Source of the DNA: an uncultured Gammaproteobacteria bacterium
GTDB taxonomy: Bacteria; Patescibacteriota; Microgenomatia; UBA8517
Direction of reading: 5' to 3'
NCBI GenBank assembly: GCA_964458085.1
Contig: CAYWFF010000002.1
Coordinates: forward strand, 3,473-62,532
DNA: 59,060 nt
The position numbers and the translations under genes are program-made. The notes under the pieces are model-generated. The model searched no databases, was not told the origin of the DNA, and worked only from the letters and a program-made list of their open reading frames with translations. Positions 29,277 through 43,127 of the stretch are shown one piece after another; the stretch's first letter is position 1; every line of letters begins with the position of its first letter.

Positions 29277-29412
29277 TTTATACAAAGTAGATTTTTAAAT
29301 CTAAAATCTTAGGGATACCTTAAAACATTGTCATATTTAGTCGCCTATAGTAAATATTTCTTTACGATGATATAATAAAACCCTTGTTTCTTATATTGAA
29401 ACGTTAAAAGTT

Positions 29413-30033
29413 ATGAAAGTGAATGAAATAATAAAATTATTTTATGCAACACCTGGAGTTGTGAATCTCAGTGACAAAGATGATTTTGAACCCCAACCTG
29501 GAGTATATGCCTCAGTTTATATAAATTTAAAGACACCTCTTTACTTTCCGAAACTGCGTAAAAAGTTAGCTAAGCTACTGTCTGTCCACGTAGATAATAA
29601 TGCTGATTATATATGTGGAATAGAAAGCGGTGGATCATATTATGCCTCAGCAGTTGGTGATATAGCTGATAAAAAAATTTTACTTTTCAGAAAGGAGAAA
29701 AAGCAATATAACATAAAAAATAATTTTGTCGGGAACTTACCGCAAAAAGGAGATTCGGTGGTTATTGTTGATGATGTTATCTCCAGCGGTAATACAATAT
29801 CTAAAGCTGTAGAGAGTTTGAGAGAATTGGGGTGCAGGGTAAAAGCAGTTATGCTTTTTAGTTATGGTTGGGACGAGCAAATTGCTAAAAATTTAGATAT
29901 TGAAATAAAAGTTCTATCTACGGCGGAGGAACTTATTGAGTATGGACTTTCAATAAAAAGAATGTCTTTACACAATTCAAAAATAATAAGAGATTTTGTT
30001 AAAAGAGAAGAAAACCGTTTAGCTAAACTTTAA
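29413..30033 (+). CDS. Type I phosphoribosyltransferase, orotate-PRTase-like
   Basis: PRPP-binding loop VVIVDDVISSGNT preceded by FRKEKKQYN...G, with OPRT-like architecture. Confidence 0.75.
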   Translation: MKVNEIIKLFYATPGVVNLSDKDDFEPQPGVYASVYINLKTPLYFPKLRKKLAKLLSVHVDNNADYICGIESGGSYYASAVGDIADKKILLFRKEKKQYNIKNNFVGNLPQKGDSVVIVDDVISSGNTISKAVESLRELGCRVKAVMLFSYGWDEQIAKNLDIEIKVLSTAEELIEYGLSIKRMSLHNSKIIRDFVKREENRLAKL

Positions 30034-30034
30034 G

Positions 30035-30655
30035 ATGTTGGAAAGAATCATCAAACCATGTTTAGAATATGCCTTTGAAGGAATCGATGGAGGTGGTAAA
30101 ACTTCAAGTATTACCTTCCTAAAAGAACATTATCAAGCCCAAGGGCTCGAAGTAGTTGTTTTGTCTGGAATTAGTAAAACTCCATTCGGAATGGCGATAC
30201 GGAGAAATATTACTAAATTAAATAGCATGGGTGTAAACGGGATGAGATTCTTTAAAGAGGATATAAGACGATCGTATGAAAGTGTTAACGGCCATGGAGA
30301 CGTGGCAGATTTAATCTTTTGGGATAGACATATTTACTCGATGGCTGCTGCCAATAGCGAAGGTTGCAACCTGGCATTAATTAGAGAAACGAAACCACAA
30401 GTTAGTGAACCGTCAAAAGTTTTTCTGTTGGATGTTTCACCATCTATTGCTTGGCAACGAGAAACCAAAGCACAAAAGGGAGATCATCCTTTAACTCCGG
30501 TGTGGTTGGAGGAGAAGTGTGTACGCTACCATGAATTAGTTGACAAAGAACCAAATAGGTTTATCACAATTGATGCTTCCCAGCCACCCGATGATGTTTT
30601 TCAGCAGTTATTAGATATAATAAATGAGGACTTAAAAAAAGTAGGTAAGTTATAA
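30035..30655 (+). CDS. Thymidylate-kinase-family nucleoside monophosphate kinase
   Basis: P-loop FEGIDGGGKTS and a DRH (DRY/F-like) motif. Length 206 aa. Confidence 0.65.
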   Translation: MLERIIKPCLEYAFEGIDGGGKTSSITFLKEHYQAQGLEVVVLSGISKTPFGMAIRRNITKLNSMGVNGMRFFKEDIRRSYESVNGHGDVADLIFWDRHIYSMAAANSEGCNLALIRETKPQVSEPSKVFLLDVSPSIAWQRETKAQKGDHPLTPVWLEEKCVRYHELVDKEPNRFITIDASQPPDDVFQQLLDIINEDLKKVGKL

Positions 30656-30657
30656 AT

Positions 30658-31275
30658 ATGAAAATCATTCTTGCTTCAACATCGCCTAGAAGAATTGAAA
30701 TGTTGAATTGGCTGGCTATCACTTTTGAATCGGTAAGTCCTGAATTGGATGAAACTAAGATTCGTTATACTGACCCTATGAAGCTTACCCAGAAACTATC
30801 TGAGGCTAAAGCAATAGCAGTAGCCGATAAGTATAAAGATGCAATAATTATCGGTTCTGACGCAGTAGTTTCATTCGAGGGGGGGATAATTGAGAAACCA
30901 AAAGACATTGATGATCAAAGAAGAATGCTATATTTACAGAGAGGGAAACCTGCAATAGTAGTTACTTCGGTATGTTTAGTTAACACTAAAACAAATGAAA
31001 CTGTGGTAAAGACGAAAGAAACTGAATATACAATGGCTAATGTTACCGATGAACAAATAGAAAATTATATAAAAACGGGAGTTGGTTTAAGCAGAGCGGG
31101 AGGTTATGGCCAACAGGATGAAAACGGGATGTTTATCGGAACTGAGTTTGACTGTTATCCCAATAGTATCGGCTTCCCTATTTGCTTAGTTAAAGAAATG
31201 CTTGAAGATATGGGTGTAAAAATTAATGTAGATATTAAGAGTGTAGTTAAAGAAAAAACCGGTAAACTTTGCTAG
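30658..31275 (+). CDS. maf: Maf-family nucleoside triphosphate pyrophosphatase
   Basis: N-terminus IILASTSPRR and GSD...GKP...GAYGIQ-like GGYGQQD. Confidence 0.88.
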   Translation: MKIILASTSPRRIEMLNWLAITFESVSPELDETKIRYTDPMKLTQKLSEAKAIAVADKYKDAIIIGSDAVVSFEGGIIEKPKDIDDQRRMLYLQRGKPAIVVTSVCLVNTKTNETVVKTKETEYTMANVTDEQIENYIKTGVGLSRAGGYGQQDENGMFIGTEFDCYPNSIGFPICLVKEMLEDMGVKINVDIKSVVKEKTGKLC

Positions 31276-31303
31276 CTACCTGTCCTTCAATAATTTTCAT
31301 AAT

Positions 31304-32170
31304 ATGAGTCAAGAGTTATTGGTTTGTGGAAATATCGCCCGCGATGTAATTTTTGGGAATGAGAAGCGTGGCGGTTCGGCTCCTGCAATAGCAATTAACG
31401 CGGGAAGATTAGGTGTTTCTTCAGGTTTACTCTCTGTCGTCGGTAAAGATATATTCAGCCAGGAGTATCTTCATTTTTTGAGAGCCAACAATATTAATAT
31501 AGATATGGTTGAAAAAAGTTTAGAAGAACTGCCGGAGTGCCGGGTTTTTACAAATTCAGCCTCAGCAGTTGAAGTAAAATGGATTGATAATGGTTGCCAT
31601 GAAGCAATGGAAAATATGCAGGTTAGTTTAAACGCAGCGCTTAATTATTCAGTGGTTCACCTTGTCAGCTGTCCTCCCGGACTGGCAAGAAAATTATCAG
31701 AAATAGGCATAACTAACCTTTCGTATGAACCAGGGCCATACATACACGAAGACCCTGCTTACCTCGATTTTGCCGTTATAGACAGAAGTAAAATGCTGTT
31801 TTTAAATGAAGAAGAATATCAATCAGCCTTAAAAATATCAGGGTTAAGATCGCCAAGAGATTTTATTCACGATAGTAACCGGATTTTAATAGTTACTAAA
31901 GGTGCTAATGGTTCTGAGTTATATGTTGATACTGCTAATGGTCTGAAAAGCGAGCACATAGAAGCTGTTAAACCTGAAGGTAATATTATTGACACTACTG
32001 GAGCAGGAGATTCCTATAAAGCAGGTTTCTTTGCTGGTTATATAAGAGGTAGGTCGCTTTCGGAATGTGCTTTAATTGGCTCGTATATGGGCGCAGCGTG
32101 TATTACACAAGAAGGTGGTATTTTACATCCAGGTGCGGTTGCAAGAATTAAAGTTGAATACGGATTGTAA
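31304..32170 (+). CDS. PfkB-family sugar/nucleoside kinase
   Basis: C-terminal signature DTTGAGDSYKAGF and N-terminal GG dipeptide region. Confidence 0.85.
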   Translation: MSQELLVCGNIARDVIFGNEKRGGSAPAIAINAGRLGVSSGLLSVVGKDIFSQEYLHFLRANNINIDMVEKSLEELPECRVFTNSASAVEVKWIDNGCHEAMENMQVSLNAALNYSVVHLVSCPPGLARKLSEIGITNLSYEPGPYIHEDPAYLDFAVIDRSKMLFLNEEEYQSALKISGLRSPRDFIHDSNRILIVTKGANGSELYVDTANGLKSEHIEAVKPEGNIIDTTGAGDSYKAGFFAGYIRGRSLSECALIGSYMGAACITQEGGILHPGAVARIKVEYGL

Positions 32171-32262
32171 CTTTATTGTTGCGTTTACTATTGATTTTTA
32201 AAAGCACCGTAGTATACTTGTTCCTATAGTTTAATAATTGTTGTTGTTGTTTATCTGTGAAT

Positions 32263-33249
32263 ATGAAGAAAATATTAGGTGTTATCATCATTATTGTTAT
32301 CGCCTTTGTAGCATTTTTTGTATTAAAAAATAAAAATGTTGCTAAAGTAAGGACTTCAACTCAAACGGAAAAAGTATCACTTCGGTTAAAATGGCTCGAC
32401 CAGGCACAGTTCTCTGGTTTTTATCTTGCAAAGAGTAAAGGTTTATATAAAGAAAAAGGGTTGGATGTAACTATTAACCCGGGCGGTCCTGAAGTTTCAC
32501 CGGTGCAGATGGTCGTTTCTAAGGTTGATAATTTTGGAATTACTGGTGCCGACCAGATAATTTTGGCAAGAGAAAAAGGTTTACCAATTGTTGCTCTAGC
32601 AGTAATTTATAAAGATACTCCTGTTGCCATAGGTTCTTTGAAAAAGACCAATATTACTAAACCGCAGGACCTTCAAGGAAAGAAAGTCGGATTGATATAC
32701 GGAAGGGATGAAGAAACAATCTACCGGGCACTTCTGGTAAAGGAAAAAGTTGACCCGAAAAGTATAAATGAGGTTGCTCTTCTCTCTGGATTGTCGCAAC
32801 TTACTACCGGAGCTATTGATGCACAAATTCTATATGAAATTAACGAACCGATTTTACTTGAACAACAAGGTTTTGAAGTGAACCTGATTAAACCTAGAGA
32901 CTACGATATTAATTTTTATGCCGATGTTCTTTTCACTACTGAAGATATGATAAAGGAACATCCTCAGGAAGTAAGGAGCTTCGTCAAAGCAAGTATCGAA
33001 GGATGGAAATCAGTTTTTAGTAATCAGGAAGAAGCAATAAACGAAGTGGTGAATGTCAGCAGCTCTTTAGACAGAACTCATCAAACTAAATTCCTTGAAC
33101 TTAGTAAACCTTTAATTACAGGTAAAGGAGAAATCGGTTATTCCGATAAAAAGGTATGGGAAGATATTCAAACGACTCTTTTAAGCCAGAAACTACTTAA
33201 AAACTCTATCGAGATTGACAAAGTATTCACCAACGACTTCTTGAAATAA
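32263..33249 (+). CDS. ABC transporter substrate-binding protein, NMT1/THI5-like (NitT/TauT family)
   Basis: Signal/TM anchor followed by LRLKWLDQAQFSGFYLAKSKGLYKEKGLDV, typical of NMT1/THI5-like SBPs. GTG at 32257 is an alternative start. Confidence 0.8.
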   Translation: MKKILGVIIIIVIAFVAFFVLKNKNVAKVRTSTQTEKVSLRLKWLDQAQFSGFYLAKSKGLYKEKGLDVTINPGGPEVSPVQMVVSKVDNFGITGADQIILAREKGLPIVALAVIYKDTPVAIGSLKKTNITKPQDLQGKKVGLIYGRDEETIYRALLVKEKVDPKSINEVALLSGLSQLTTGAIDAQILYEINEPILLEQQGFEVNLIKPRDYDINFYADVLFTTEDMIKEHPQEVRSFVKASIEGWKSVFSNQEEAINEVVNVSSSLDRTHQTKFLELSKPLITGKGEIGYSDKKVWEDIQTTLLSQKLLKNSIEIDKVFTNDFLK

Positions 33250-34004
33250 TGAGCCTCATTCAAGTTAACAAGCTTGAGAAAAGTTACAGCAATAGCGGAG
33301 TTCTTGCTGTTAAGAACCTCTCTTTTAATATCGACGAAGGGGATTTTGTTTCTATTGTTGGTCCTTTTGGTTGTGGTAAAACGACTGTTTTACATTTAAT
33401 TGGTGGAATCAAGGATTCGTATAAAGGAGAGATAGATATAGCTGGTGACTCGCCGATTCAAGCTAGGATGAAAAGAAAAATCGGATTTTGTTTCCAAAAA
33501 TCTAACTTGCTTCCATGGTTAAATGTTATAGACAATGTGTTACTTCCTCAAAAAATTGCTAATGTCAAAGTAGATAGAAGCAGAGCAGTTAAACTTTTAA
33601 AAATGGTTGGTTTAGAAAAGTATCGATTTATGAAACCTTATAATCTCTCGGGTGGAATGCAGCAGTTAGTCTCGATCACCCGCGCACTCATATTAGATCC
33701 AAAAATTTTATTATTGGATGAACCCCTCTCTTCAATCGATGAAATCAATAGATTTAAAATGCATCTTAAGCTATTGGAAATTCATAAAAAAACAAGAAAA
33801 ACAACTGTTATGATAACTCATTCAATTAATGAAGCAGTGTTATTATCAAATAAAGTTATTATACTAACTCCCCGACCTGCTAGGGTTAAAAAGATAATCG
33901 GAATTAATTTATCTGCTCGAGATAGTAAGACCCTATTTTCAAAGAAGTTTGTTAACTATACCAGAACAATAAGAAAGGAGTTGATTAATGACAAGAATAA
34001 TTAG
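33249..34004 (+). CDS. ABC transporter ATP-binding protein (NitT/TauT family)
   Basis: Walker A GPFGCGKTT, signature LSGGMQQ and Walker B ILLLDEP. Confidence 0.9.
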   Translation: MSLIQVNKLEKSYSNSGVLAVKNLSFNIDEGDFVSIVGPFGCGKTTVLHLIGGIKDSYKGEIDIAGDSPIQARMKRKIGFCFQKSNLLPWLNVIDNVLLPQKIANVKVDRSRAVKLLKMVGLEKYRFMKPYNLSGGMQQLVSITRALILDPKILLLDEPLSSIDEINRFKMHLKLLEIHKKTRKTTVMITHSINEAVLLSNKVIILTPRPARVKKIIGINLSARDSKTLFSKKFVNYTRTIRKELINDKNN

Positions 34005-34734
34005 AAGATTTCTACCTTTTTTTGTATTTATTATTTTATGGTATGCTACTGTCGAAGTTTTCAAAATTCCACCATATGTTTTACCAAAACCTTTAGTTGT
34101 TTTCGAATCGTTAATTTTAAATGGTTCAACAATACTTTCAAATACTGTGATCACACTCCGTGAGGCTTTTATTGGTTTTTTTATTGCTAACTTAGTAAGT
34201 ATAACAATTGCTCTGGGAATTGCTTTCAATAAAAATATGGAAAATACAATTATGCCCTTTGCGATTACTTTAAAAACTATACCGATATTAGCGATAACTC
34301 CGCTTTTAGTGGTTTGGTTTGGGCCAGGAGAATATTCAAAAATTGCTACAGCTGCATTAATTTGTTTTTTCCCGTCATTAGTAAATGTCCTCAGAGGAGT
34401 AAAGTCACTTGATAGAGATTTAACTGAATTTTTCAAGGCTTATGCTGCAAATAAACTACAACTAATAAAGATGTTAATTATTCCCAGCATTCTACCTTAT
34501 TTGTTTGCAGCTCTTAAAGTTTCCAGCTCACTTGCGGTTATCGGTGCTTTAGTTGGTGAATTTATTGGGGCAAATAAAGGTTTAGGATTTTTAATAATTT
34601 CAAACTACTATACTCTAAATACCCCTTATGTATTTGCATCTATTATTGTTTCGAGTTTTGTCGGTATTGTTTTTTATTATGTAATTCATTTTTTTGAAAA
34701 AAGAATTATAACCTGGACTGCAACAATTGACTAA
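33988..34734 (+). CDS. ABC transporter permease (NitT/TauT family, BPD_transp_1)
   Basis: Six TM segments. Overlaps the ATPase gene, suggesting coupling. Confidence 0.85.
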   Translation: MTRIIRRFLPFFVFIILWYATVEVFKIPPYVLPKPLVVFESLILNGSTILSNTVITLREAFIGFFIANLVSITIALGIAFNKNMENTIMPFAITLKTIPILAITPLLVVWFGPGEYSKIATAALICFFPSLVNVLRGVKSLDRDLTEFFKAYAANKLQLIKMLIIPSILPYLFAALKVSSSLAVIGALVGEFIGANKGLGFLIISNYYTLNTPYVFASIIVSSFVGIVFYYVIHFFEKRIITWTATID

Positions 34735-35275
34735 TTCTATGAAAGAAATAGAGATTTATCATATGTTACCAAGGACTAAGCAATTGTTAGAAGACGATAT
34801 ATTAAGGAGAAGGGCAGAATTATCTGATATTTCACAACAAGGTGCTGAAATTTGGGAAGGAGATCAGTGGCATAGTACAACTTACCGTGAGCAGCAACGT
34901 AGGAGAGAACTGGCAATTAGACTTTTGCAATTAATAGATCAAAAAAGTGGGAAGATAGATGTGCTTAATAAACCCAGACAGAATAACCAGATTGAATTGG
35001 GACATATGGCTAAAGTAATGTTGTTGGATGATCCTGATGTTTTGGAAGTAGGTATTCCCTACTCGCTTATTCATGTTTTAAGTAGTGAAGATGTCTTATA
35101 TCTAGGTCAATTGTTCGACAATATAAGAGAAATGGTTGTTTCCCAAGAGTCTCCGATTGGAAATGCCCTGCTAGGTAGAGGACGAAATGAAATAGCTACC
35201 TATCTTCAGGTAAATAGGCTAAAAATTCTCGGGGACAAGGATGCTATTAAAACGTCATATCTTTTTGATGGGTAG
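34727..35275 (+). CDS. GreA/GreB-family-like factor
   Basis: N-terminal coiled coil with EGDQWHSTTYREQQRR (cf. GDLSENAEY) and C-terminal ...SQESPIGNALLGRGRNE (cf. SPIGKALLGKKVGD). Divergent from the canonical family. Confidence 0.5.
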   Translation: MTNSMKEIEIYHMLPRTKQLLEDDILRRRAELSDISQQGAEIWEGDQWHSTTYREQQRRRELAIRLLQLIDQKSGKIDVLNKPRQNNQIELGHMAKVMLLDDPDVLEVGIPYSLIHVLSSEDVLYLGQLFDNIREMVVSQESPIGNALLGRGRNEIATYLQVNRLKILGDKDAIKTSYLFDG

Positions 35276-35305
35276 TTTTATTAAGTAAACAACTTTCTGA
35301 TAAAG

Positions 35306-35682
35306 GAACTGATTAACACATATCATTGCGTATGTTGGAAAGTGAAAAGCTGGTTAATAACAATCAAACAGCTGAAAGCTCTAAAGTCATACAGGAAAGA
35401 GTTCAGAAAGCAAGAAATATTCAGATTAAGCGATTTAATGGGACTAAATTTAAATCAAATAGTGAAATGAGTTCAAAAGCTGTTAAACAGTTTTGTTCGC
35501 TAACTCCTGATTGTGCTTCTCTTATGATCAGTGCAACAGCTTCAATGAATTTAACTGGCAGGTCGTATCACAAAGTCCTAAAAGTATCACGTACTATTGC
35601 AGATCTGGAAGGAGAAAAGGATATTTTAGTAAAACATCTTGCTGAAGCGCTTCAGTACAGGCCAACAGAGGACGTATTTTAG
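35306..35682 (+). pseudogene. comM/yifB 3'-end remnant (copy 2 of the 377-bp repeat)
   Basis: Translation TD*HISLRMLESEKLVN...LAEALQYRPTEDVF matches 96 of 124 positions of the intact gene's C-terminus (hand count). In-frame TAA at the third codon; the 5' 1.15 kb of the gene is absent. Confidence 0.85.
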
Positions 35683-35698
35683 ATACACATACCCATAG

Positions 35699-35727
35699 TT
35701 GTTTATTTGGTTTCATTTTTATATACT
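35699..35727 (+). promoter_or_regulatory. Candidate promoter TTGTTT-N17-TATACT for the island B plus-strand operon
   Basis: -35 at 35699-35704 and -10 at 35722-35727, 20 nt upstream of the ATG at 35748. Confidence 0.35.
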
Positions 35728-35747
35728 TCTTCATATTAAAAGAATGC

Positions 35748-36971
35748 ATGACTCAGGAACTTAAAGGCAAAGAAACAACTGACTATTCACTTTATCCAAT
35801 TTACAAAGCTGCTTTTTTCAGAAATAGTGGCATGATCTCTTTAAGATTGGAGGAAAAGAAAGAAACCGTTTGTTTCAAAGAAAGGTTGTCGAATCAGGAT
35901 GAAGCACAGCCTGATGGAAATCTGTTTGCTTTTGTAACAAATCCCGTAAATCCAGAGGCATCAAAGTTATTAGAGCAACCCGATAACCTAACTAAGTATT
36001 TTAAAGAGGAAGGTTTTGAGGTACATAGACCCATGCCTGTTGTTAGTAAATCAGGAAGCACTTTATTTATTTCTGCGGGTGTGCAAAACCTGGAAAGTGT
36101 TTATATAGGTGAAGGTCCTATTTCTAATAGAAGTATTTATGTCGCGCAACCTGTTTTCAGGACCCAATATGTAGGTCAGGCAGCTGAAGGAATCTCTACT
36201 AGCTTTGTAAATGTGTGTTTGGAATCGATAAATCAAGGTGCTGAAACTCATTTCCAAAACTTGCAAAAAGTATTTACTTTATTTGCTAATCTTGGTCTAA
36301 AAAGGGAAGATTTTTTATTTGAGGTAGATGAGAAAGAATCTAGTTGGGGTGATCGCACACATTTGCAAAAACGAGTTAAAATATTTTTTCAAGGTTTGGA
36401 GATTGGTGATGCAATTTTTATCGAAGGCTTTCCTCAAAATACTAGAAAAAGTTTAGAGATCAGTGATATCGGATTGGGTTTTGAAAGACTTAAATGGGTA
36501 TTAAAGGGAGGGTCTTACTGGGATGTACATGAGGAGGCTTCTTCTCATAAACATAGGCTTAGCACAGTTGACTCTACCAAAACTTTGGCCCTTTTGGCTG
36601 GTTCAGATGTTGTCCCTCATTACAAAGCTCATGGTTACAGATTTAGACTACTTTCAAAAAAGGTAGTTGAAGAGCTTGCTTCGGGAGAAAGCAGAGAGGG
36701 TTTGTCCGACTTATTAGGAAAATACCATGATTATTGGAATAAATGGACTGAACTTCCTGTCTCAAAAGGCGTTTCTCTGAAACGTGTTCTTGATGAAAAT
36801 ACCAGAAATTTCAATGTCGAATTGATTAACAGGCTGAAAAACTTTTATGATAGTGTAGACGTTGATATAAATAGGCCTACGGATCAAGTAGTACAGCTAT
36901 TAAAAGGTACACCTGCTGATATAAGTAAAATTCAGGATATAATTAATGAAATGGGAGGAGTGTTGTTATGA
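35748..36971 (+). CDS. Stand-alone class IIc (AlaRS-type) aminoacyl-tRNA synthetase catalytic-core paralog
   Basis: STLFISAGVQNLESVYIG (cf. AlaRS LLFTNAGMNQFK..FLG), LEIGDAIFIEGF (cf. EIWNLVFMQF) and motif 3 ISDIGLGFERLKWVLKGG (cf. IDTGMGLERLAAVLQG). At 407 aa it has no room for tRNA-recognition, editing or C-Ala domains. Confidence 0.6.
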   Translation: MTQELKGKETTDYSLYPIYKAAFFRNSGMISLRLEEKKETVCFKERLSNQDEAQPDGNLFAFVTNPVNPEASKLLEQPDNLTKYFKEEGFEVHRPMPVVSKSGSTLFISAGVQNLESVYIGEGPISNRSIYVAQPVFRTQYVGQAAEGISTSFVNVCLESINQGAETHFQNLQKVFTLFANLGLKREDFLFEVDEKESSWGDRTHLQKRVKIFFQGLEIGDAIFIEGFPQNTRKSLEISDIGLGFERLKWVLKGGSYWDVHEEASSHKHRLSTVDSTKTLALLAGSDVVPHYKAHGYRFRLLSKKVVEELASGESREGLSDLLGKYHDYWNKWTELPVSKGVSLKRVLDENTRNFNVELINRLKNFYDSVDVDINRPTDQVVQLLKGTPADISKIQDIINEMGGVLL

Positions 36972-37660
36972 ACTGTAAAATGTTTCTATCGGGTGGGGGT
37001 TCTGAAAAAGACACTTTTGATTTTGATAAAAAGTTTATTAACTCGCTTAAATTCAGAAAAATCCTCTATATCCCAATTGCTATGGAAAGGGACGCTCAAG
37101 GATACGAAAGCTGCTACGACTGGATAACTTCTTCACTTACCCAATTTGATGATAAATTCATTGAAATATCGATGTGTGTAGATTTGCATGAGATTTCGCT
37201 TTCGAAGTTAAATAATTTTGCAGCGGTTTACTTTGGCGGTGGCAATACATATAGACTTCTGGATAAAATCTACTCTTCTGGCTTTGATAAACTACTATTG
37301 AATTTTATTGAAAATGGAGGAATTTATTATGGTGGAAGTGCAGGAGCAATTGTTATAGGCAAAAGTATTGAAACTGTTCTGGAAGAAAAGGATAAATTTT
37401 ATTCTTTTAGTAAGGGTTTGAAGCTAATTGGAGATTTTTCTTTAGTCTGTCATTTTAATAAACATACTGAGGATAAAATAAAGAATATGGATAAATTTTT
37501 GGATAAACATAATACTCCCGTTATTGCCCTGCCTGAAGATTCGGGACTAATTGTAGATAGGGATAAAATCCAAATGTTCGGGAAGTCAGAATCAATGATT
37601 TTTTACCCCAACGGTACGCGAAGAAAGTTCATACAAGGAGAATCAATTAATATAAAGTAG
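36968..37660 (+). CDS. Peptidase S51 family (dipeptidase E/cyanophycinase-like)
   Basis: GGGNTYRLL and nucleophile motif YGGSAGAIV. 4-nt overlap with the upstream gene. Confidence 0.75.
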   Translation: MNCKMFLSGGGSEKDTFDFDKKFINSLKFRKILYIPIAMERDAQGYESCYDWITSSLTQFDDKFIEISMCVDLHEISLSKLNNFAAVYFGGGNTYRLLDKIYSSGFDKLLLNFIENGGIYYGGSAGAIVIGKSIETVLEEKDKFYSFSKGLKLIGDFSLVCHFNKHTEDKIKNMDKFLDKHNTPVIALPEDSGLIVDRDKIQMFGKSESMIFYPNGTRRKFIQGESINIK

Positions 37661-37662
37661 TT

Positions 37663-39321
37663 ATGAAGGTAAAACTTAATATTAATCCAAACAAAAGTAA
37701 TCTTTACCTAGGGATAGGTTCGAATCACGACTTTTCCGGATGTTTAGTTAAGAATGGAAAAATATTCGAAGCTATCGAAGCAGAAAGAATTAGTAAATTA
37801 AAACATTCTCTGGATGCATTTAATCCCTTTAGCTCAGTATTAAAATATTTATTTAATACAAAAGAGGTAAATATTGCCGCATTAGCCTCCTGTGACACAC
37901 TAAGCCCGAAATATTATTACAAATACAAAGACAAAATCAAGCTTTATAATCACCATCTTTGTCATGCCGCAACAGTTTTTTACACTTCCCCTTTTCAAGA
38001 ATCTGCAGTGTTTGTTGCAGATGGTTTAGGAAGTATGTGGGAATTAAACGACGGAGGCTATAAATATGAAACGTACTCTTATTATCAAGGGAATAATAAT
38101 AAATTAAAACTTATGAGCAAGCAATTCGGCGTAGTCGATAACTCTCTGGATGAAACACACTTACATCAAATATATATTCCCAACTCAATGGGGCTTTTTT
38201 ATAACTACATTACTAAAATAGTTGGATTTAATTTTTTGGACGACGGAAAAACGATGGGTCTTTCAGCATACGGCAATCCGGATGCTTTTTATAAAGAATT
38301 CCTCAAATTCTTCAGTTTCAAGAAAGATGGAATTGTAGACAATAATTTTGCTAAGAAAGAGGTAGATTATTATTCAGACATGGTAAGCTCATGCGCGGAT
38401 GCAAAAAAACAATTCAAAATAAAAGCAGATATTGCTGCCTCCGCACAAAAGGTTTTTGAAGAATGTTACTTTTATTGTTTAAATTATCTCTACCAAGAAA
38501 CTAAAAATGAAAATCTTTGTCTAAGCGGAGGGATTGTACTAAATAGTGTGGCGAATGGCAAAATCAAAAAGATGACTTCTTTTAAAAAGATACACTACTT
38601 TCCCGGCTGTGGGGACGACTCTATAGCTATTGGATCTGCATTTTTAGCTTATCTGGAGGATCATCGGGAAAATTCTAAAAGGTTAGTTAACTGGCAAACT
38701 CCTTTCTTAGGTAAAGATTATACAGATGACATCATCGAGTCGAAGTTAAGGAAGTATAAAGTAAAATTTAAAAAATCTGAAGATATATATAAAACGTCAG
38801 CAAACTTACTTGCCGAAGGAAAGATTGTTGGCTGGTTCACAGGAAAATCTGAATTTGGCCCTCGGGCTTTAGGTCATAGAAGCATAGTGGTTGATCCTCG
38901 AAACCCGAAAATAAAAGATATTCTTAATGACCGTGTTAAACACCGGGAATTTTTCAGGCCGTTTGCCCCAGCTATATTAGAAGAATACACAGACGAATAT
39001 TTTGATGTTATCAATTCTCCATCTCCTTACATGCTCGAGGTATTTCCCATTAAAAAAGATAAACAATCTTTAATTCCAGCGGTTGTACATAACGATGGAA
39101 CCGGACGTATACAAACGGTCGGAAGAAAAAACACCGAGTTTTATAAACTTATTAATGAATTTTTTAAGTTAACAGGTGTACCTGTAATATTAAACACATC
39201 ATTTAATATTAATAAGATGCCCATTGTTGAAACCCCGGAAGATGCAATTAACTGTTTCTTAAACACGGAGATTGATGTGCTTTCTATTGGAAACTATATA
39301 TGTACAAAAAACTCTGGCTAG
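37663..39321 (+). CDS. Carbamoyltransferase (NodU/CmcH family)
   Basis: Metal-binding NHHLCHA, ...LCLSGGIVLNSVANG..., EFGPRALGHRSI and NTSFN motifs. Length 552 aa. Confidence 0.85.
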   Translation: MKVKLNINPNKSNLYLGIGSNHDFSGCLVKNGKIFEAIEAERISKLKHSLDAFNPFSSVLKYLFNTKEVNIAALASCDTLSPKYYYKYKDKIKLYNHHLCHAATVFYTSPFQESAVFVADGLGSMWELNDGGYKYETYSYYQGNNNKLKLMSKQFGVVDNSLDETHLHQIYIPNSMGLFYNYITKIVGFNFLDDGKTMGLSAYGNPDAFYKEFLKFFSFKKDGIVDNNFAKKEVDYYSDMVSSCADAKKQFKIKADIAASAQKVFEECYFYCLNYLYQETKNENLCLSGGIVLNSVANGKIKKMTSFKKIHYFPGCGDDSIAIGSAFLAYLEDHRENSKRLVNWQTPFLGKDYTDDIIESKLRKYKVKFKKSEDIYKTSANLLAEGKIVGWFTGKSEFGPRALGHRSIVVDPRNPKIKDILNDRVKHREFFRPFAPAILEEYTDEYFDVINSPSPYMLEVFPIKKDKQSLIPAVVHNDGTGRIQTVGRKNTEFYKLINEFFKLTGVPVILNTSFNINKMPIVETPEDAINCFLNTEIDVLSIGNYICTKNSG

Positions 39322-40265
39322 CCGTAAAGATAATTAACGGTGTTTTTGTAAGTAATAGCAGACACGGCATCGGATGATAATTTCAGGAGGTCAACTAGAA
39401 CGTTTACCTCATCAAAATAACTATTTTCGCTTCTTATTTTGCCGTTTGAATTGATTGACGTTGTCCATGGTTCATCAGTTCCCCAAATAAGATGATCTTT
39501 CAAAACACCAAAGTATCTATTTAACGAGGCCGCGGGATTTTGAAAATCGATTAAATTGGGAAAATTAACTATTTCACTTTTTTCCTCGACTGCTCTACAA
39601 ATCTGCAAGAATGGCGCACAATCTATAAATATATTTTGATGCCTAGGTACTTCCTTAATTATTTCCTGATCAAGTCCTCCCAAATGAGCAATACAAACAC
39701 GAAGTTCCGGTAAAGTCTCGCCCAATTCAATAATATTTCGTGGGTGTGAAAGTCGATCCAATCCAGCATGTATTAAGATTGGAAGGTTCCGCTCAACTGC
39801 GAAGTCACCGATTCCGCTTTTTGCAATTTCAAGCGCCCGGCAACCACTAGCTAACGAGTGGAATTTTAGACCAAATATTTGCCGTCTGTCATGTAAATTT
39901 CCCAGGAAAGCCAATTGTTCAGGCACTTTTGTGGTCGGATCCACACAAGCAAAAGGGATAACGGCCTCAATTCGCTTCGAATCGTTTACAAGAACGAAAT
40001 TCTCCTGCTGGTACGGAAAATCTTGTTGGCCACTGCGTTCTTTTCTACCTTCGGTTACCAAAATTCTCGCATTAAAATAAGACGAGCCTGGAAACGGGGT
40101 CGTAATTGCTCGATTTACACCTGCAAATTTTACTTTTAAAGCAAGATCTTCAACCGCCTGGGAGTGCGGAATATTACCCATGAAGAAATTATATGTATCT
40201 GTACCACCAGAATGGGTATGAGAGTCAATTACGTTGTTTATCCCCAACTCTTTTAATGATGTCAT
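39318..40265 (-). CDS. Metal-dependent amidohydrolase (TIM-barrel, Amidohydro_2-like)
   Basis: N-terminal VIDSHTHSG and later HAG/HLGG metal-ligand motifs. Confidence 0.7.
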   Translation of the reverse strand: MTSLKELGINNVIDSHTHSGGTDTYNFFMGNIPHSQAVEDLALKVKFAGVNRAITTPFPGSSYFNARILVTEGRKERSGQQDFPYQQENFVLVNDSKRIEAVIPFACVDPTTKVPEQLAFLGNLHDRRQIFGLKFHSLASGCRALEIAKSGIGDFAVERNLPILIHAGLDRLSHPRNIIELGETLPELRVCIAHLGGLDQEIIKEVPRHQNIFIDCAPFLQICRAVEEKSEIVNFPNLIDFQNPAASLNRYFGVLKDHLIWGTDEPWTTSINSNGKIRSENSYFDEVNVLVDLLKLSSDAVSAITYKNTVNYLYG

Positions 40266-40272
40266 ATGTTCA

Positions 40273-41517
40273 TTAAAAATTAACGTTATTCCCGTTTATA
40301 AACTCGTCCGTCACTGAACTTATATTTTTTAGACCATCTTTAATGATTTTCGTAATAATACTTTTGTTAGCATCCGAAATGACCCTAACTTTCCAAGGAT
40401 CCTTTAATGGCGCGCCGTTTTGCGAAACCATCTCTATGATATTCGCCTTACCTGTTTTCTGAAAAATTTCTTTGGAAAGTTTTTTTGTTAAAACTGCATA
40501 GATAAATCCAGAATAATATCTCGGATTTTTTCCATTTGTGCCCTCCAGACTCATAGGACGGTTTGATGTTATTAATCCGTTTGTTCTATTGCCTCTACCT
40601 GAAACCCCAATATCGCCAGACAAAGAAGATCCAGTAACAGTTAGGTAAACATTCATTTTCTCATAATCATCCTTGGTGTTTAGTGATAGGTTAATATTAT
40701 TTCCGGGCAATGAGGCTGTAAATTTTTTGTAAATAAGTCTTCCTATTTGATTTAAATTTTTCTTGTAAATTTCTAAAGACTCTACGTGCTTGGCTATCTG
40801 TGGTATACACATTGTAATTGAAATATTTTTTTTATCCCTAATGGCCATAATCTTTATATCAGTACCGAGCCAGGGATATCTGTGTTTCGTTGACTTCTGA
40901 TTTAAAAAGTTTTCAACAGTAAGGACTGTAGATTCTAAATTCGAATAAGGAGCATATGCTACGCAATACGAAGTATCATTCGCCACCAGTTTTTCATATC
41001 CTCTAACCTCTTTATTGTTTTTTGGGGCAAACATACTAGCAATTGCACCCTTACTGGATAGTATTGTTCCCGGTCCGGGGTAAGAAGTTAAATTGTTTTG
41101 GATTAAGTAATCCCGAGAATATTTTAAATCCGGAAACATCATATTGAAGTATTCTCTAATTGTTGACGTTGTAATTTTATCAATCGGAATTATTTTTTCC
41201 TTATAGGAACCAGAGGCTCTCCCCGCAACTATAATTTTGATTGGTTCGACAAATCGCCCCTTTCCATAACTAACCTCGGTCTTACCGCCAATAACCATTA
41301 CTTTGTCTATTTGATGATGAAGAATTAGATTGTCACAATTTTTAAGAGTATACCTTGAGTATGCCAAACTTATATTCGCAGCTATTGCATCTGCTATTGT
41401 ATCTGGGTGACCCAACCCCTTCCTTTCAATAGTTTCAAAATCTTTATTAAAGGGTTTACTATTATAAATAGTTATCTCCATTTTTTTAATTGCATCAGGT
41501 CCATATATATAATCCAT
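40273..41517 (-). CDS. Archaeal-type S-adenosylmethionine synthetase (methionine adenosyltransferase)
   Basis: ERKGLGHPDTIAD, ANDTSYCVAYAP, YLTVTGSSLSGDIGVSGRGNRTNGLIT and SLEGTNGKNP are collinear with the remembered Methanocaldococcus MAT sequence. Confidence 0.85.
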   Translation of the reverse strand: MDYIYGPDAIKKMEITIYNSKPFNKDFETIERKGLGHPDTIADAIAANISLAYSRYTLKNCDNLILHHQIDKVMVIGGKTEVSYGKGRFVEPIKIIVAGRASGSYKEKIIPIDKITTSTIREYFNMMFPDLKYSRDYLIQNNLTSYPGPGTILSSKGAIASMFAPKNNKEVRGYEKLVANDTSYCVAYAPYSNLESTVLTVENFLNQKSTKHRYPWLGTDIKIMAIRDKKNISITMCIPQIAKHVESLEIYKKNLNQIGRLIYKKFTASLPGNNINLSLNTKDDYEKMNVYLTVTGSSLSGDIGVSGRGNRTNGLITSNRPMSLEGTNGKNPRYYSGFIYAVLTKKLSKEIFQKTGKANIIEMVSQNGAPLKDPWKVRVISDANKSIITKIIKDGLKNISSVTDEFINGNNVNF

Positions 41518-41522
41518 ATTTA

Positions 41523-42587
41523 TTAAATTTGTTGGTTTAAAGTGTCCGAAAATCTATCATTTATTTGCCTGTCTGTATAATTACAATCAACACATTTTAC
41601 TTCCCTAAGCATTGCCCGTCTTATTGACTTACTATTTCTCCAGACATTTTCAAAAGCATTTGCACTATCATCGTTTAAATCAACGGCCATATTTCCCATA
41701 AGATAACCATTAACTTCCCTCGGTTGTGCACCCAAGCAACAACTATATAAATCACCATAAGGATTAATTGCTGATTTGAAATATGGAATAACACATGGAC
41801 GGCCGATCTTAAATCTATCTAACTGTGTTCTAATTTCTACAGCATCACCCCAGTATGCCTTCACTAATGATAGTGATTTTTCTACACCGTCTCTCTGCGT
41901 GTCAGGAATGTATTTTCCATATATGTCATGCTTGAAAATTACTTTATCAACTCCAACCTCACCCAGCAAAGTATCCGCAAATTGAACTATCTCTCCTTGA
42001 TTATGCGGGTTTGTTATAAATGATGCACCGACTAACAAATTAGTATTTTGTCTTTTCTTTTCTTCCACGACACCTCTAATGTTAACTAAAGTAGTACCAA
42101 GTAATGACGGATCAACATTCCGGATTAAAGAATATGTATCAGGATTAACTGTATCCATGCTGAATCGAATTTCAACGCAATTTACAATATCCGAAAGAAG
42201 ATCGTTTGGTATAAAATTGCCATTTGTCACAATTCTGGTGTTAAGGTTTCTGAGTTGAGCCTCTTTAATAAATGTTCTGATGTTTCTTGATAAAAAAGGT
42301 TCACCACCTCCAGAAATCGAATACTCTCTAATTTTTAGTTCTGCTAAATTAGCAATAAGATTTCTTATTTGGTTTTCAGAGAGATATCTTGATGTATCCC
42401 TATCTTTCCCAAAACCTTTCCCTCCATGAAAGCAATAGTTACAACCCTGATTACAAATATCGGTTGGATGAACTTCAACACTAATAGGATATGGATCATA
42501 ACCTTTAATAACTTCTCCAAATACCGCCTCGGTTTGACTTAGCAAGATAGCTTCCTGTTTCATAGTTTCAGGAATTATATCACTCAT
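41523..42587 (-). CDS. Radical SAM enzyme with C-terminal auxiliary-cluster (SPASM/twitch-like) region
   Basis: CNQGCNYC (CX3CX2C), SGGGEP, and C-terminal cysteines (CVIPYF...YSCC...CVDC). Confidence 0.88.
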   Translation of the reverse strand: MSDIIPETMKQEAILLSQTEAVFGEVIKGYDPYPISVEVHPTDICNQGCNYCFHGGKGFGKDRDTSRYLSENQIRNLIANLAELKIREYSISGGGEPFLSRNIRTFIKEAQLRNLNTRIVTNGNFIPNDLLSDIVNCVEIRFSMDTVNPDTYSLIRNVDPSLLGTTLVNIRGVVEEKKRQNTNLLVGASFITNPHNQGEIVQFADTLLGEVGVDKVIFKHDIYGKYIPDTQRDGVEKSLSLVKAYWGDAVEIRTQLDRFKIGRPCVIPYFKSAINPYGDLYSCCLGAQPREVNGYLMGNMAVDLNDDSANAFENVWRNSKSIRRAMLREVKCVDCNYTDRQINDRFSDTLNQQI

Positions 42588-42750
42588 ACTTCATTTTTTC
42601 CCTATATCACTAAAAAAAGAGAAAATTATAATTTCTATTTCTTTGTATATAGCTTTGGATACCCGACTATTCTCAAGTTTGCTTCTGGTGTCATCTCTTG
42701 AGCATTGCACCAAGGTTTCGTTTATATACATATTGTTGTGCTTCATAAAT

Positions 42751-43127
42751 GAACTGATATTCATATCAATGTCCCATCAGTTGAAACTCAAAAACTTATC
42801 AGTGAAAATTCCAAAGGAGAGCCTTCGCAACTCATTCAATTGAGGGTTCAAAAAGCAAGAAATATGCAAATAAAGCGTTTCAAAGAAAGTAAATTAAAAT
42901 CAAACAGTGAAATGTCTACAAAAGATGTCAATAATTTTTGTCCTCTGACAACGAACTGTAAACAAATGATGCTTTCCGCAGTTTCTGCGATGAATTTGTC
43001 TGCCCGTTCGTACTTTAAAGTAATTAAAGTGGCAAGGACTATTGCTGATTTGGCGGAAGTTAATGAAATAGCCCCTGAGCACATTGCAGAGTCACTTCAA
43101 TACCGCCATAAAGAAAAAGATATGTAA
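42751..43127 (+). pseudogene. comM/yifB 3'-end remnant (copy 3 of the 377-bp repeat; probably the displaced ancestral gene end)
   Basis: Translation TDIHINVPSVETQKLISEN...AESLQYRHKEKDM matches 71 of 124 positions of the intact C-terminus (hand count). An in-frame TGA lies immediately upstream. The track ORF at 42840 covers only its distal part. Confidence 0.8.

What the first reader, a model, noticed from the sequence alone, without database searches (positions are those of the whole stretch)
35748..36971. Stand-alone AlaRS-type catalytic core without tRNA-binding, editing or C-Ala domains
Seen: the 407-aa protein has collinear matches to the class IIc signature blocks (TLFISAGVQN..., LEIGDAIFIEGF, DIGLGFERLKWVLKGG). 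It is less than half the length of a bacterial AlaRS, and its C-terminal ~150 aa are helical and unrelated. Established: truncated aaRS paralogs such as HisZ, AsnA, PoxA, YadB and MshC have repeatedly been recruited as ligases or regulators. Inference: to my knowledge a truncated AlaRS catalytic paralog is not among the well-described cases. It could activate an amino acid for transfer to a small molecule processed by the neighbouring S51 peptidase and carbamoyltransferase.
Basis: partly seen in the sequence, partly recalled or inferred. Interest (0 to 1): 0.6.

Follow-up and report, generated by a model that had tools for sequence, protein, structure and literature searches.

The report
Shortened AlaRS-like enzyme with hydrolase partner
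This gene encodes a shortened, strongly diverged copy of archaeal alanyl-tRNA synthetase from an undescribed family that is almost always paired with a serine hydrolase and its own SAM-making enzyme, and it most likely attaches an amino acid to something other than a translation tRNA.

Summary
The ORF (35748-36971, 407 aa) is real and clearly derived from AlaRS. A model (pLDDT 91.9) superposes on A. fulgidus AlaRS residues 2-471 at Z 30. [quoted passage not shown]

The motif 2 and motif 3 arginines are invariant in 115 relatives and the amino-group aspartate is D in 108 (E in 7). The two G3:U70 readers are lost in this protein. A canonical 629-aa alaS lies on another contig.

The protein belongs to an unannotated family (313 clusters at 50% identity, about 350-430 aa) in Patescibacteria, small-genome Bacillota and DPANN archaea. 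In 58 genome loci an S51 peptidase follows it in 48 and an archaeal-type SAM synthetase is adjacent in 47. SerRS, a GT-B protein or a radical SAM enzyme are often present. Natural AlaRS-like fusions to S51, to a GT-B domain and to a methyltransferase exist. A complex model places S51 on the former tRNA face (0.88, best control 0.54).

Here the module lies on a low-GC island flanked by comM 3'-end copies. The most likely role is a non-translational aminoacyl ligase or transferase for an aminoacyl-nucleoside-type compound. The chemistry is unknown. This scan has found the same module before in other genomes.

The parts
35748..36971 (+). AlaRS-like gene (AlaL, 407 aa, P0001)
   Evidence: ORF and translation; AlaRS homology; 313 family clusters
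35787..35957 (+). N-terminal extension (res ~14-70), homologous to the archaeal-AlaRS-specific N-terminal zinc-ribbon region; the cysteines are lost in this copy
   Evidence: The profile alignment starts at AfAlaRS residue 11. The model aligns from AfAlaRS residue 2. CxxC...C is kept in 43 of 115 relatives.
35958..36551 (+). Class II (AlaRS-type) catalytic core (res ~71-268) with R138 (motif 2), F153, W200, E218, D240, G242, R247 (motif 3)
   Evidence: Alignment to E. coli and archaeal AlaRS; conservation counts
36552..36968 (+). Helical acceptor-stem (tRNA-recognition/ATL-like) domain (res ~269-407). The G3:U70 reader positions are Y292 and K386.
   Evidence: reader residues defined in PMC10036535
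36968..37660 (+). S51 peptidase-like serine hydrolase, translationally coupled (ATGA overlap); Ser124-His162-Glu190 triad invariant
   Evidence: Pfam E 1.4e-26; alignment A4; follows AlaL in 48/58 loci; complex model; natural fusion P0124
37663..39321 (+). NodU/CmcH-type carbamoyltransferase (accessory gene of this version of the module)
   Evidence: Pfam; also present in L055 and L058
39318..40265 (-). Amidohydro_2 family metal hydrolase/decarboxylase (accessory)
   Evidence: Pfam; orthologues directly after S51 in L008-L010
40273..41517 (-). Diverged archaeal-type methionine adenosyltransferase (PF01941), the only SAM synthetase found in this genome
   Evidence: adjacent to AlaL in 47/58 loci
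41523..42587 (-). Radical SAM/SPASM enzyme (accessory); orthologues sit next to the MAT in L057, L077 and L078
35306..35682 (+). Diverged copy of the comM 3' end, left boundary of the island that carries the module
   Evidence: Pfam Mg_chelatase_C; three-way alignment
42751..43127 (+). Second diverged copy of the comM 3' end, right boundary of the island
   Evidence: Alignment; GC 0.35 inside against 0.39-0.42 outside

Best explanation
The gene encodes a non-translational enzyme that evolved from the N-terminal half of an archaeal-type AlaRS (N-terminal extension, class II catalytic core and acceptor-stem domain). It still binds an adenine nucleotide and the alpha-amino group of a small amino acid. 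It no longer reads the G3:U70 identity pair of tRNA-Ala. It works as a complex with the co-translated S51 serine hydrolase, which is predicted to sit on the surface where tRNA used to bind. Inferred mechanism: AlaL either forms an aminoacyl-adenylate from ATP and an Ala/Ser/Gly-sized amino acid, or takes the aminoacyl group from an aminoacyl-tRNA as AcmF does. It then passes the group to a non-tRNA acceptor, most likely an adenosine- or nucleotide-type small molecule. The S51 partner hydrolyses the aminoacyl-nucleotide-type bond, for proofreading, self-protection or release, as the S51 enzyme MccG does. The neighbouring SAM synthetase supplies SAM for the pathway; here the radical SAM enzyme uses it. 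Shown: homology, retained residues, gene linkage, fusions, patchy and mobile distribution. Inferred: every chemical step, the substrate and the product.
For: Homology and architecture: (Z 30.2 to AfAlaRS 2-471). Kept residues: R138, F153 and R247 in 115/115, D240 in 108/115 (E in 7), W200 in 109/115, E218 in 87/115. G3:U70 readers are not kept: Y292 and K386 here; in the family Asn in 67/115, and Asp is not among the six commonest residues at the other reader (PMC10036535). Not the housekeeping enzyme: a canonical AlaRS is present in the own genome and in 9 of 10 other AlaL genomes. Module: S51 in 48/58 and MAT in 47/58 loci across bacteria and archaea, in two different gene orders. Natural fusions AlaL-S51, AlaL-GT-B and AlaL-methyltransferase. 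Complex model: ipSAE 0.88 against best control 0.54, a mark reached by 58 of 80 solved complexes and 2 of 110 mismatched pairs; runs agree in at least 91% of contacts; partner pLDDT at least 89. The interface covers AlaL 104-113, 138-144, 196-201, 223 and 292-304. S51 triad invariant. Published precedents: AcmF, a truncated AlaRS-like enzyme, aminoacylates an adenosine sulfamate and is paired with the hydrolase AcmE (PMC12945691). S51 MccG cleaves aminoacyl-nucleotides (PMC9239234). Patchy and mobile: found in 3 of 201 sampled genomes of the phylum, on a low-GC island between comM 3'-end copies.
Against: No chemistry has been shown and no acceptor identified. The position equivalent to E. coli Asn212 (the N of EIWN, N213 when Met1 is counted, as) is Asp/Glu in 93 of 115. 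By the logic applied to AcmF's N219Q this could impair normal adenylate formation. The amino-acid pocket position equal to E. coli V214 is variable (V/N/I/S/G), so specificity cannot be read. The MAT is the only SAM synthetase of these genomes, so its adjacency may reflect co-transfer of a generally useful gene rather than SAM as a pathway substrate. PF01941 MATs also occur without AlaL in 8 of 201 sampled genomes. GT-B, sugar aminotransferase and deacetylase neighbours in some loci point to a sugar rather than a nucleoside acceptor. The complex is a model only.
Confidence: 0.45

Rival explanations
1. Amino acid:sugar ligase. AlaL activates an amino acid and joins it to an amino sugar or glycoconjugate made by the GT-B partner, following the logic of MshC in mycothiol synthesis. 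The product would be a small metabolite or a cell-envelope decoration. S51 acts as an amidase or transfer partner.
For: A GT-B (Glycos_transf_1-like) gene follows S51 or AlaL in 12 of 58 loci and is fused to S51 in L015, L017 and L018. An AlaL-GT-B fusion, P0106, exists. L076 holds GT2, GT1, a polysaccharide deacetylase and a DegT aminotransferase around an AlaL-methyltransferase fusion. An inositol-1-phosphate synthase lies near the module in L006.
Against: The GT-B gene is absent from this window and from about 80% of loci. Its Pfam match is weak (E about 1e-5). No sugar-nucleotide genes are conserved with the core trio. This reading does not explain the SerRS or SAM synthetase linkage.
Confidence: 0.2
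2. A true mini-aaRS. AlaL charges a tRNA (tRNA-Ala through the acceptor stem alone, or another tRNA with a small or non-standard amino acid). S51 hydrolyses mis-activated or mis-charged products in place of the missing editing domain.
For: It has the same two-domain architecture as the active AlaRS catalytic fragments and the Tupanvirus mini-AlaRS, which works without the canonical G3:U70 readers (PMC10036535). The basic helix GYRFR..SK is kept (R300 in 105/115, K304 in 95/115). The PSN Asn is kept in 67 of 115 relatives.
Against: It is only 16-18% identical to AlaRS. A canonical AlaRS with an editing domain co-exists. It was found in only 3 of 201 sampled genomes of the phylum. There is no tRNA gene in the window. 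The S51 partner is modelled on the acceptor-stem face, including position 292, and is fused to AlaL in P0124.
Confidence: 0.12
3. Regulatory, ligand-sensing subunit (HisZ-like). AlaL binds an amino acid, ATP or SAM and controls the S51 hydrolase (or the MAT) without catalysing a ligation.
For: A stable complex with S51 is predicted. SAM resembles an aminoacyl-adenylate in shape (inference). The acidic residue at the Asn212-equivalent position could disfavour phosphate.
Against: Both class II arginines and the stacking Phe are invariant in 115 diverged sequences, which is more than ligand sensing usually requires. Fusions to a methyltransferase and a GT-B domain look like a biosynthetic assembly.
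Confidence: 0.1
4. Protein-modifying ligase (EpmA/PoxA-like). AlaL aminoacylates a protein side chain, and the radical SAM enzyme prepares the amino acid, as EpmB does for EF-P.
For: It shows an aaRS paralog plus radical SAM pairing in the window, L057, L077 and L078. A protein, S51, is modelled in the tRNA site.
Against: No conserved Lys, Ser or Thr acceptor lies in the S51 loop that enters the AlaL cleft; only W52 is invariant. The radical SAM gene is absent from most loci. No EF-P-like gene is linked.
Confidence: 0.06

Closest known systems
AcmF (with AcmD and AcmE) of ascamycin biosynthesis, Streptomyces sp. 80H647 (PMC12945691; Zheng et al., ACS Catal 2024)
   Same: It is a truncated AlaRS-like protein with only the aminoacylation and tRNA-recognition domains and a changed residue at the AlaRS Asn position. 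It acts outside translation on an adenosine-type acceptor. It is encoded next to a hydrolase that reverses the reaction and next to an extra aaRS copy.
   Different: AcmF is reported to have lost most ATP- and alanine-activation residues (N219Q, D232E), whereas AlaL keeps both arginines and the Asp. The spacing from the motif 2 Arg to the EI-strand Glu is 80 residues here against 123 in AcmF (residue numbers), so the truncations are probably independent. The partner hydrolase is S51 rather than an alpha/beta hydrolase. The linked aaRS copy is SerRS rather than AlaRS, and it is absent from this window. Direct sequence comparison was not possible because the AcmF sequence was not on hand.
Archaeal alanyl-tRNA synthetase, N-terminal fragment (A. 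fulgidus 3WQY/2ZTG; P. horikoshii 2ZZE-G)
   Same: The fold matches over AfAlaRS residues 2-471, including the archaea-specific N-terminal extension (Z 30.2). The signature blocks are collinear. The motif 2 and 3 arginines, stacking Phe, Trp, Glu and amino-group Asp are kept.
   Different: Identity is 16-18%. About 65 residues are deleted. There is no editing or C-Ala domain. The G3:U70 readers are not conserved. The residue at the Asn212-equivalent position is acidic. It is not the housekeeping enzyme.
Tupanvirus mini-AlaRS (PMC10036535) and the 'small-AlaRS' of CPR/DPANN (bioRxiv 10.1101/2023.05.29.542759)
   Same: These are naturally shortened AlaRS forms, and the mini-AlaRS has the same two-domain architecture.
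   Different: Those are close relatives of ordinary AlaRS and charge tRNA-Ala. This genome's own 629-aa AlaRS is of the small-AlaRS type, while AlaL is a separate, far more diverged lineage tied to S51 and MAT.
MccG, S51 peptidases that cleave aminoacyl-nucleotides (PMC9239234)
   Same: The partner protein is an S51 Ser-His-Glu hydrolase. MccG shows that this family can cleave the bond between an amino acid and a nucleotide.
   Different: MccG acts on isoaspartyl-nucleotide phosphoramidates of microcin C-type RiPPs. No MccB-type gene was seen near the module in the gene tables read. Clade membership of the module S51 was not resolved.
Recruited aaRS paralogs: MshC, EpmA/PoxA, HisZ, AsnA, amino acid:carrier-protein ligases
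   Same: The general principle is the same: an aaRS catalytic core reused for ligation to a non-tRNA acceptor, or for regulation within a protein complex.
   Different: None of these derives from AlaRS, none keeps an acceptor-stem domain, and none is paired with an S51 hydrolase or a SAM synthetase.

Membership tests
Canonical alanyl-tRNA synthetase (class IIc, EC 6.1.1.7) | AlaRS-type class II catalytic fold with collinear signature motifs | tested here: met
   Z 30.2 to 3wqy_A and Z 25 to E. coli and A. aeolicus fragments; profile E 4.7e-29
Canonical alanyl-tRNA synthetase (class IIc, EC 6.1.1.7) | Scores above the curated family cut-offs (PF01411, TIGR00344, TIGR03683) | tested here: not met
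   16.1 against 30.3 bits; 25.3 against 457; 42.2 against 744.7
Canonical alanyl-tRNA synthetase (class IIc, EC 6.1.1.7) | Asn and Asp readers of the G3:U70 pair (E. coli N303/D400, A. fulgidus N359/D450) | tested here: not met
   Y292 and K386 in this protein. In the family Asn occurs in 67/115 at the first site, and Asp is not among the six commonest residues at the second. Residues defined in PMC10036535.
Canonical alanyl-tRNA synthetase (class IIc, EC 6.1.1.7) | Editing (tRNA_SAD) and C-Ala domains | tested here: not met
   The protein ends at the equivalent of AfAlaRS residue ~471. There is no such Pfam hit. The genome's real AlaRS has tRNA_SAD.
Canonical alanyl-tRNA synthetase (class IIc, EC 6.1.1.7) | Charges tRNA-Ala with alanine | not testable with these tools
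   Needs an aminoacylation assay
AcmF-type aminoacyl-tRNA-dependent AlaRS-like transferases | Only the aminoacylation plus tRNA-recognition domains | tested here: met
   AcmF architecture from PMC12945691
AcmF-type aminoacyl-tRNA-dependent AlaRS-like transferases | Loss of ATP/alanine-activation residues (N to Q, D to E) | tested here: inconclusive
   The Asn-equivalent is D221 (D62/E31 of 115), but the Asp and both arginines are kept
AcmF-type aminoacyl-tRNA-dependent AlaRS-like transferases | Sequence kinship with AcmF itself | not tested
Residue spacing taken from the review suggests an independent origin.
AcmF-type aminoacyl-tRNA-dependent AlaRS-like transferases | Clustered with an extra aaRS copy and a hydrolase | tested here: inconclusive
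   The hydrolase (S51) is present here. An extra SerRS is present in 22/58 related loci, with two SerRS genes per genome in 5/5 tested, but not in this window.
HisZ-like catalytically dead regulatory aaRS paralogs | Loss of class II catalytic residues | tested here: not met
   R138, F153 and R247 are invariant; D240 in 108/115
S51 peptidase family (partner gene) | Ser-His-Glu catalytic triad and a Pfam PF03575 match above cut-off | tested here: met
   93.8 bits against 23.9; S124, H162 and E190 invariant in 32 sequences

The most novel reading that the evidence does not exclude
AlaL and S51 form a two-protein machine in which a serine hydrolase has taken the place of tRNA on an aaRS-derived enzyme. 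The adenylate made in the AlaRS-like pocket is handed directly to, or policed by, the hydrolase. The mobile SAM-synthetase/AlaL/S51 cassette makes an aminoacylated adenosine- or SAM-derived antimetabolite, for example a seryl-adenylate mimic, with the extra SerRS copies serving as self-resistance. Ultra-small symbionts would use it against hosts or competitors.
Probability: 0.2. Interest if true: 0.85.

Novelty: new variant of a known kind. Interest (0 to 1): 0.66.

Why it matters
Recruited aaRS paralogs are a classic route to new chemistry. This would be a large AlaRS-derived family (hundreds of clusters, spanning bacteria and archaea) with no annotation and no publication found. It keeps the 'catalytic plus acceptor-stem' two-domain core that has been proposed as the ancestral unit of AlaRS and bacterial GlyRS. 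It appears to have replaced tRNA with a protein partner. It travels as a mobile cassette with the only SAM synthetase of several ultra-small genomes, so it bears on how CPR/DPANN-type symbionts acquire SAM metabolism and possibly a new class of aminoacyl-nucleoside metabolites. The hypothesis can be tested directly with two small soluble proteins.

Tried and rejected
- Housekeeping AlaRS: rejected, because a canonical alaS co-exists.
- Pseudo-enzyme: rejected on residue conservation.
- Anti-phage defence system: no PADLOC hit for AlaL, S51, MAT, the carbamoyltransferase or the amidohydrolase. The radical SAM enzyme gives only a partial viperin-like match over its radical SAM core.
- Riboswitch or tRNA linked to the module: none in the window.
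- Fused forms longer than 731 aa: none found; this is weak evidence.
- SerRS phylogeny, to show a module-specific SerRS clade: only partly informative. The Parcubacteria module-adjacent copies group with this genome's single SerRS. Only the Bacilli/Shapirobacteria and Bacillota/archaeon pairs suggest co-transfer, and those sit on long branches.
- 'AlaL present wherever PF01941 MAT is present': rejected, since 8 of 201 sampled genomes have the MAT without AlaL.
- Literature search for AlaRS active-site residue numbering returned nothing. One query was malformed.
- Model coordinates are not exposed to scripts, so the distance between S51 Ser124 and the AlaL pocket could not be measured.
Full report
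**The observation**

Window 35748-36971 (+) is an open frame of 407 codons, and the opposite strand is closed.

As a single sequence the protein only weakly resembles AlaRS:
- Pfam PF01411 scores 16.1 bits, below the 30.3-bit cut-off.
- TIGR03683 (archaeal AlaRS) gives E 3e-11.
- PDB 2zze gives E 0.02.

With relatives the signal becomes unambiguous. A 115-sequence profile matches A. fulgidus AlaRS at E 4.7e-29. An AlphaFold model (mean pLDDT 91.9, pTM 0.91) matches archaeal AlaRS structures with Foldseek E 1.9e-16. VIA-align gives Z 30.2, with 357 residues aligned and model 14-393 on AfAlaRS 2-471. Bacterial and human AlaRS fragments follow at Z about 25, and GlyRS-alpha only at Z 14.

**Anatomy**

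The match begins at residue 11 of AfAlaRS. It therefore includes the archaea-specific N-terminal zinc-ribbon extension. The cysteines are lost in this copy but kept in 43 of 115 relatives.

The catalytic core follows (residues about 71-268). Then comes a helical domain that aligns by sequence (AlaL 260-347 to Af 332-419) and by structure to the AlaRS tRNA-recognition domain. [quoted passage not shown] **Active site**

An alignment with E. coli AlaS (taken from NC_000913.3) and with archaeal and CPR AlaRS, plus counts over 115 family members, gives the following.

| Position in P0001 | AlaRS role or motif | Conservation in 115 relatives |
|---|---|---|
| R138 | motif 2 Arg (QRCVR in E. coli) | 115 |
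| F153 | stacking Phe | 115 |
| R247 | motif 3 Arg | 115 |
| W200 | conserved Trp | 109 |
| E218 | Glu of the EI strand | 87 |
| D240 | alpha-amino-binding Asp | 108 (E in the other 7) |
| G242 | pocket Gly | 96 |
| D221 | Asn of EIWN | Asp 62, Glu 31 |
| I223 | V214-equivalent pocket position | variable (V/N/I/S/G) |
| Y292 | G3:U70 reader N303 (E. coli) / N359 (A. fulgidus) | Asn in 67 |
| K386 | G3:U70 reader D400 (E. coli) / D450 (A. fulgidus) | Asp not among the six commonest residues |

The two G3:U70 readers are defined in PMC10036535. It does not look like an enzyme that reads tRNA-Ala identity.

**Not the housekeeping enzyme**

The 977-kb genome (89.6% complete) has a separate 629-aa AlaRS with an editing domain on another contig. 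It is of the 'small-AlaRS' type described for CPR (bioRxiv 10.1101/2023.05.29.542759). Nine of ten other genomes that carry an AlaL also have a canonical AlaRS.

**The family**

An exhaustive HMMER search found 313 cluster representatives at 50% identity (247 at E up to 1e-10). Nearly all are 330-430 aa. The 49 closer relatives are 242-417 aa and carry no functional annotation; the few names given by sources are 'hypothetical protein'. ESM Atlas look-alikes are all 'hypothetical protein'.

Genome hits come from Patescibacteria, small-genome Bacilli, Clostridia and Tenericutes MAGs, and DPANN archaea. Within the window's own phylum it is rare. It was found in 3 of 201 sampled genomes and not in three complete genomes of the same family.

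**Gene context**

In 58 genome loci:
- An S51 peptidase gene follows AlaL, usually overlapping it or within 30 nt, in 48 loci.
- An archaeal-type methionine adenosyltransferase (PF01941) is adjacent in 47 loci. It lies either just upstream on the same strand or just after S51 on the opposite strand.
- Several of the exceptions are contig ends.
- The same trio surrounds a relative only 25% identical to P0001.

Recurrent accessories:
- A SerRS gene in 22 loci.
- A GT-B (Glycos_transf_1-like) gene in 12 loci, fused to S51 in three.
- Amidohydro_2 in the window and three loci.
- A carbamoyltransferase in the window and two loci.
- A radical SAM enzyme orthologous to the window's (39-43% identity) next to the MAT in L077 and L078, with a further relative in L057.

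Natural fusions exist: AlaL-S51 (P0124), AlaL-GT-B (P0106) and AlaL-methyltransferase (P0176). In five of five genomes tested where a SerRS sits beside the module there are two SerRS genes, despite genome sizes of 0.6-3.3 Mb. This window's genome has one SerRS, located elsewhere.

**The S51 partner**

The window's S51 starts at the ATGA overlap with the AlaL stop codon, behind a GGGAGGAG sequence. Its Ser124-His162-Glu190 triad is invariant in 32 module S51 proteins.

A complex prediction with controls supports binding:
- The score is 0.88 against a best control of 0.54. That mark was reached by 58 of 80 solved complexes and 2 of 110 mismatched pairs.
- The runs agree in at least 91% of contacts, and the partner's pLDDT is at least 89.
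- My own alignments were used, so the calibration counts hold only roughly.
- The predicted interface on AlaL comprises residues 104-113, 138-144 (including the motif 2 Arg), 196-201, 223 and 292-304.
- Those residues form the active-site mouth and the acceptor-stem helix, including the position that reads U70 in real AlaRS.
- On S51 the interface is the loop and helix at residues 39-71, which leaves the face carrying the conserved catalytic motifs.

This is a model, not a measurement. Together with the natural AlaL-S51 fusion, it suggests that a protein has replaced tRNA at this surface.

**The SAM synthetase**

The window's MAT (40273-41517) keeps the main archaeal MAT motifs but is diverged. 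It scores 307 bits against equivalog cut-offs of 435-577, and E 4e-61 to the M. jannaschii MAT.

- It is the only SAM synthetase found in this genome.
- The same holds for four of five Bacilli or Clostridia MAGs with the module and for G190 and G198.
- Two complete genomes of the same family have no SAM synthetase of either type, and a third has bacterial MetK.
- PF01941 MATs also occur without AlaL in 8 of 201 sampled genomes.

So AlaL nearly always comes with this MAT, but not the reverse. The linkage may reflect a SAM-requiring pathway (radical SAM and methyltransferase partners), co-transfer of a useful gene, or both.

**Mobility**

The module lies between two diverged copies of the comM 3' end (35306-35682 and 42751-43127). 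A third, intact copy ends the comM gene at 29276. GC content is about 0.35 inside the island against 0.39-0.42 outside.

**Comparison with what is known**

- AcmF of ascamycin biosynthesis is a truncated AlaRS-like protein (aminoacylation plus tRNA-recognition domains). It takes alanine from Ala-tRNA and puts it on an adenosine sulfamate. It is encoded with an extra AlaRS copy and a hydrolase that reverses the reaction (PMC12945691).
- S51 peptidases of the MccG type cleave the bond between an amino acid and a nucleotide (PMC9239234).

These two precedents share one chemical object with AlaL and S51: an aminoacyl-nucleotide-like molecule. That is the basis of my preferred explanation.

AlaL differs from AcmF in three ways. 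It keeps the adenylation residues. Its residue spacing differs (80 against 123 residues between the motif 2 Arg and the EI-strand Glu). Its partners differ. I therefore regard it as an independent AlaRS offshoot. I could not compare the sequences directly.

**Verdict**

The protein belongs to an undescribed but widespread family with a strongly conserved partnership.

Its chemistry is unknown. I rank the possibilities as follows:
- A non-translational aminoacyl ligase or transferase working with S51 on a nucleoside-type acceptor: 0.45.
- A sugar-acceptor ligase: 0.2.
- A true mini-aaRS: 0.12.
- A regulatory subunit: 0.1.
- A protein-modifying ligase: 0.06.

Earlier follow-ups in this scan reached similar readings on other genomes, so this report is not the scan's first sighting of the module.

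Noticed in passing
window 28900-29276, 35306-35682, 42751-43127: Three same-length copies of the comM/yifB 3' end, clearly diverged from one another (mean column identity 80%), delimit two tandem low-GC islands (29277-35305 and 35683-42750). No integrase family turned up among the island genes I scanned.
   Followed up: partly
genomes G014, G070 (same family as the window's genome): Two complete single-contig genomes of the same family have no SAM synthetase of either the bacterial (PF02773) or the archaeal (PF01941) type. A third (G043) has MetK. SAM synthesis therefore seems dispensable or replaceable in this lineage.
   Followed up: partly
L078:10497-15707: Downstream of an AlaL-S51 fusion with MAT and radical SAM genes lie two class II (G/H/P/S/T-type) aaRS-like genes with anticodon-binding domains, a 373-aa D/K/N-type class II core without an anticodon domain, a methyltransferase and an S66 (MccF-type) peptidase. 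This is a striking pile-up of aaRS-like genes with an S66 (MccF-family) peptidase.
   Followed up: no
genomes G001, G006, G007, G008, G011: These genomes each carry two SerRS genes with the N-terminal tRNA-binding arm, one of them beside the AlaL module (four are 0.6-1.4 Mb; G011 is 3.3 Mb).
   Followed up: partly
P0176 / L076:5721-7490; P0106 / L077:3811-5904: AlaL occurs fused to a class I SAM-dependent methyltransferase domain (inside a glycan-type cluster with GT2, GT1, a deacetylase, DegT, two radical SAM enzymes and a MAT). It also occurs fused to a GT-B domain (next to SerRS, radical SAM and MAT genes).
   Followed up: partly
window 40273-41517 (-): This MAT has YSGF where the 45 module MATs mostly have Y-H-x-G-K (M. 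jannaschii has HVGK), after the conserved GKNP motif. The effect on activity is unknown.
   Followed up: no
window 41523-42587 (-): The radical SAM/SPASM enzyme gives partial matches to prokaryotic viperin models (E 5e-16 over residues 35-153) and to a tungsten-cofactor maturase model. All are far below the curated cut-offs, so the substrate class is unresolved.
   Followed up: no
G002:C14:10849-11229: The only bacterial-type MetK match among five module-bearing Bacillota MAGs has an internal TAA stop. It may be a decaying metK replaced by the module's archaeal-type MAT.
   Followed up: no
L001:1489-3378 (G000 contig C5): The genome's real AlaRS is only 629 aa (catalytic, acceptor-stem and editing domains, no C-Ala). 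This matches the 'small-AlaRS' type described for CPR and DPANN.
   Followed up: yes
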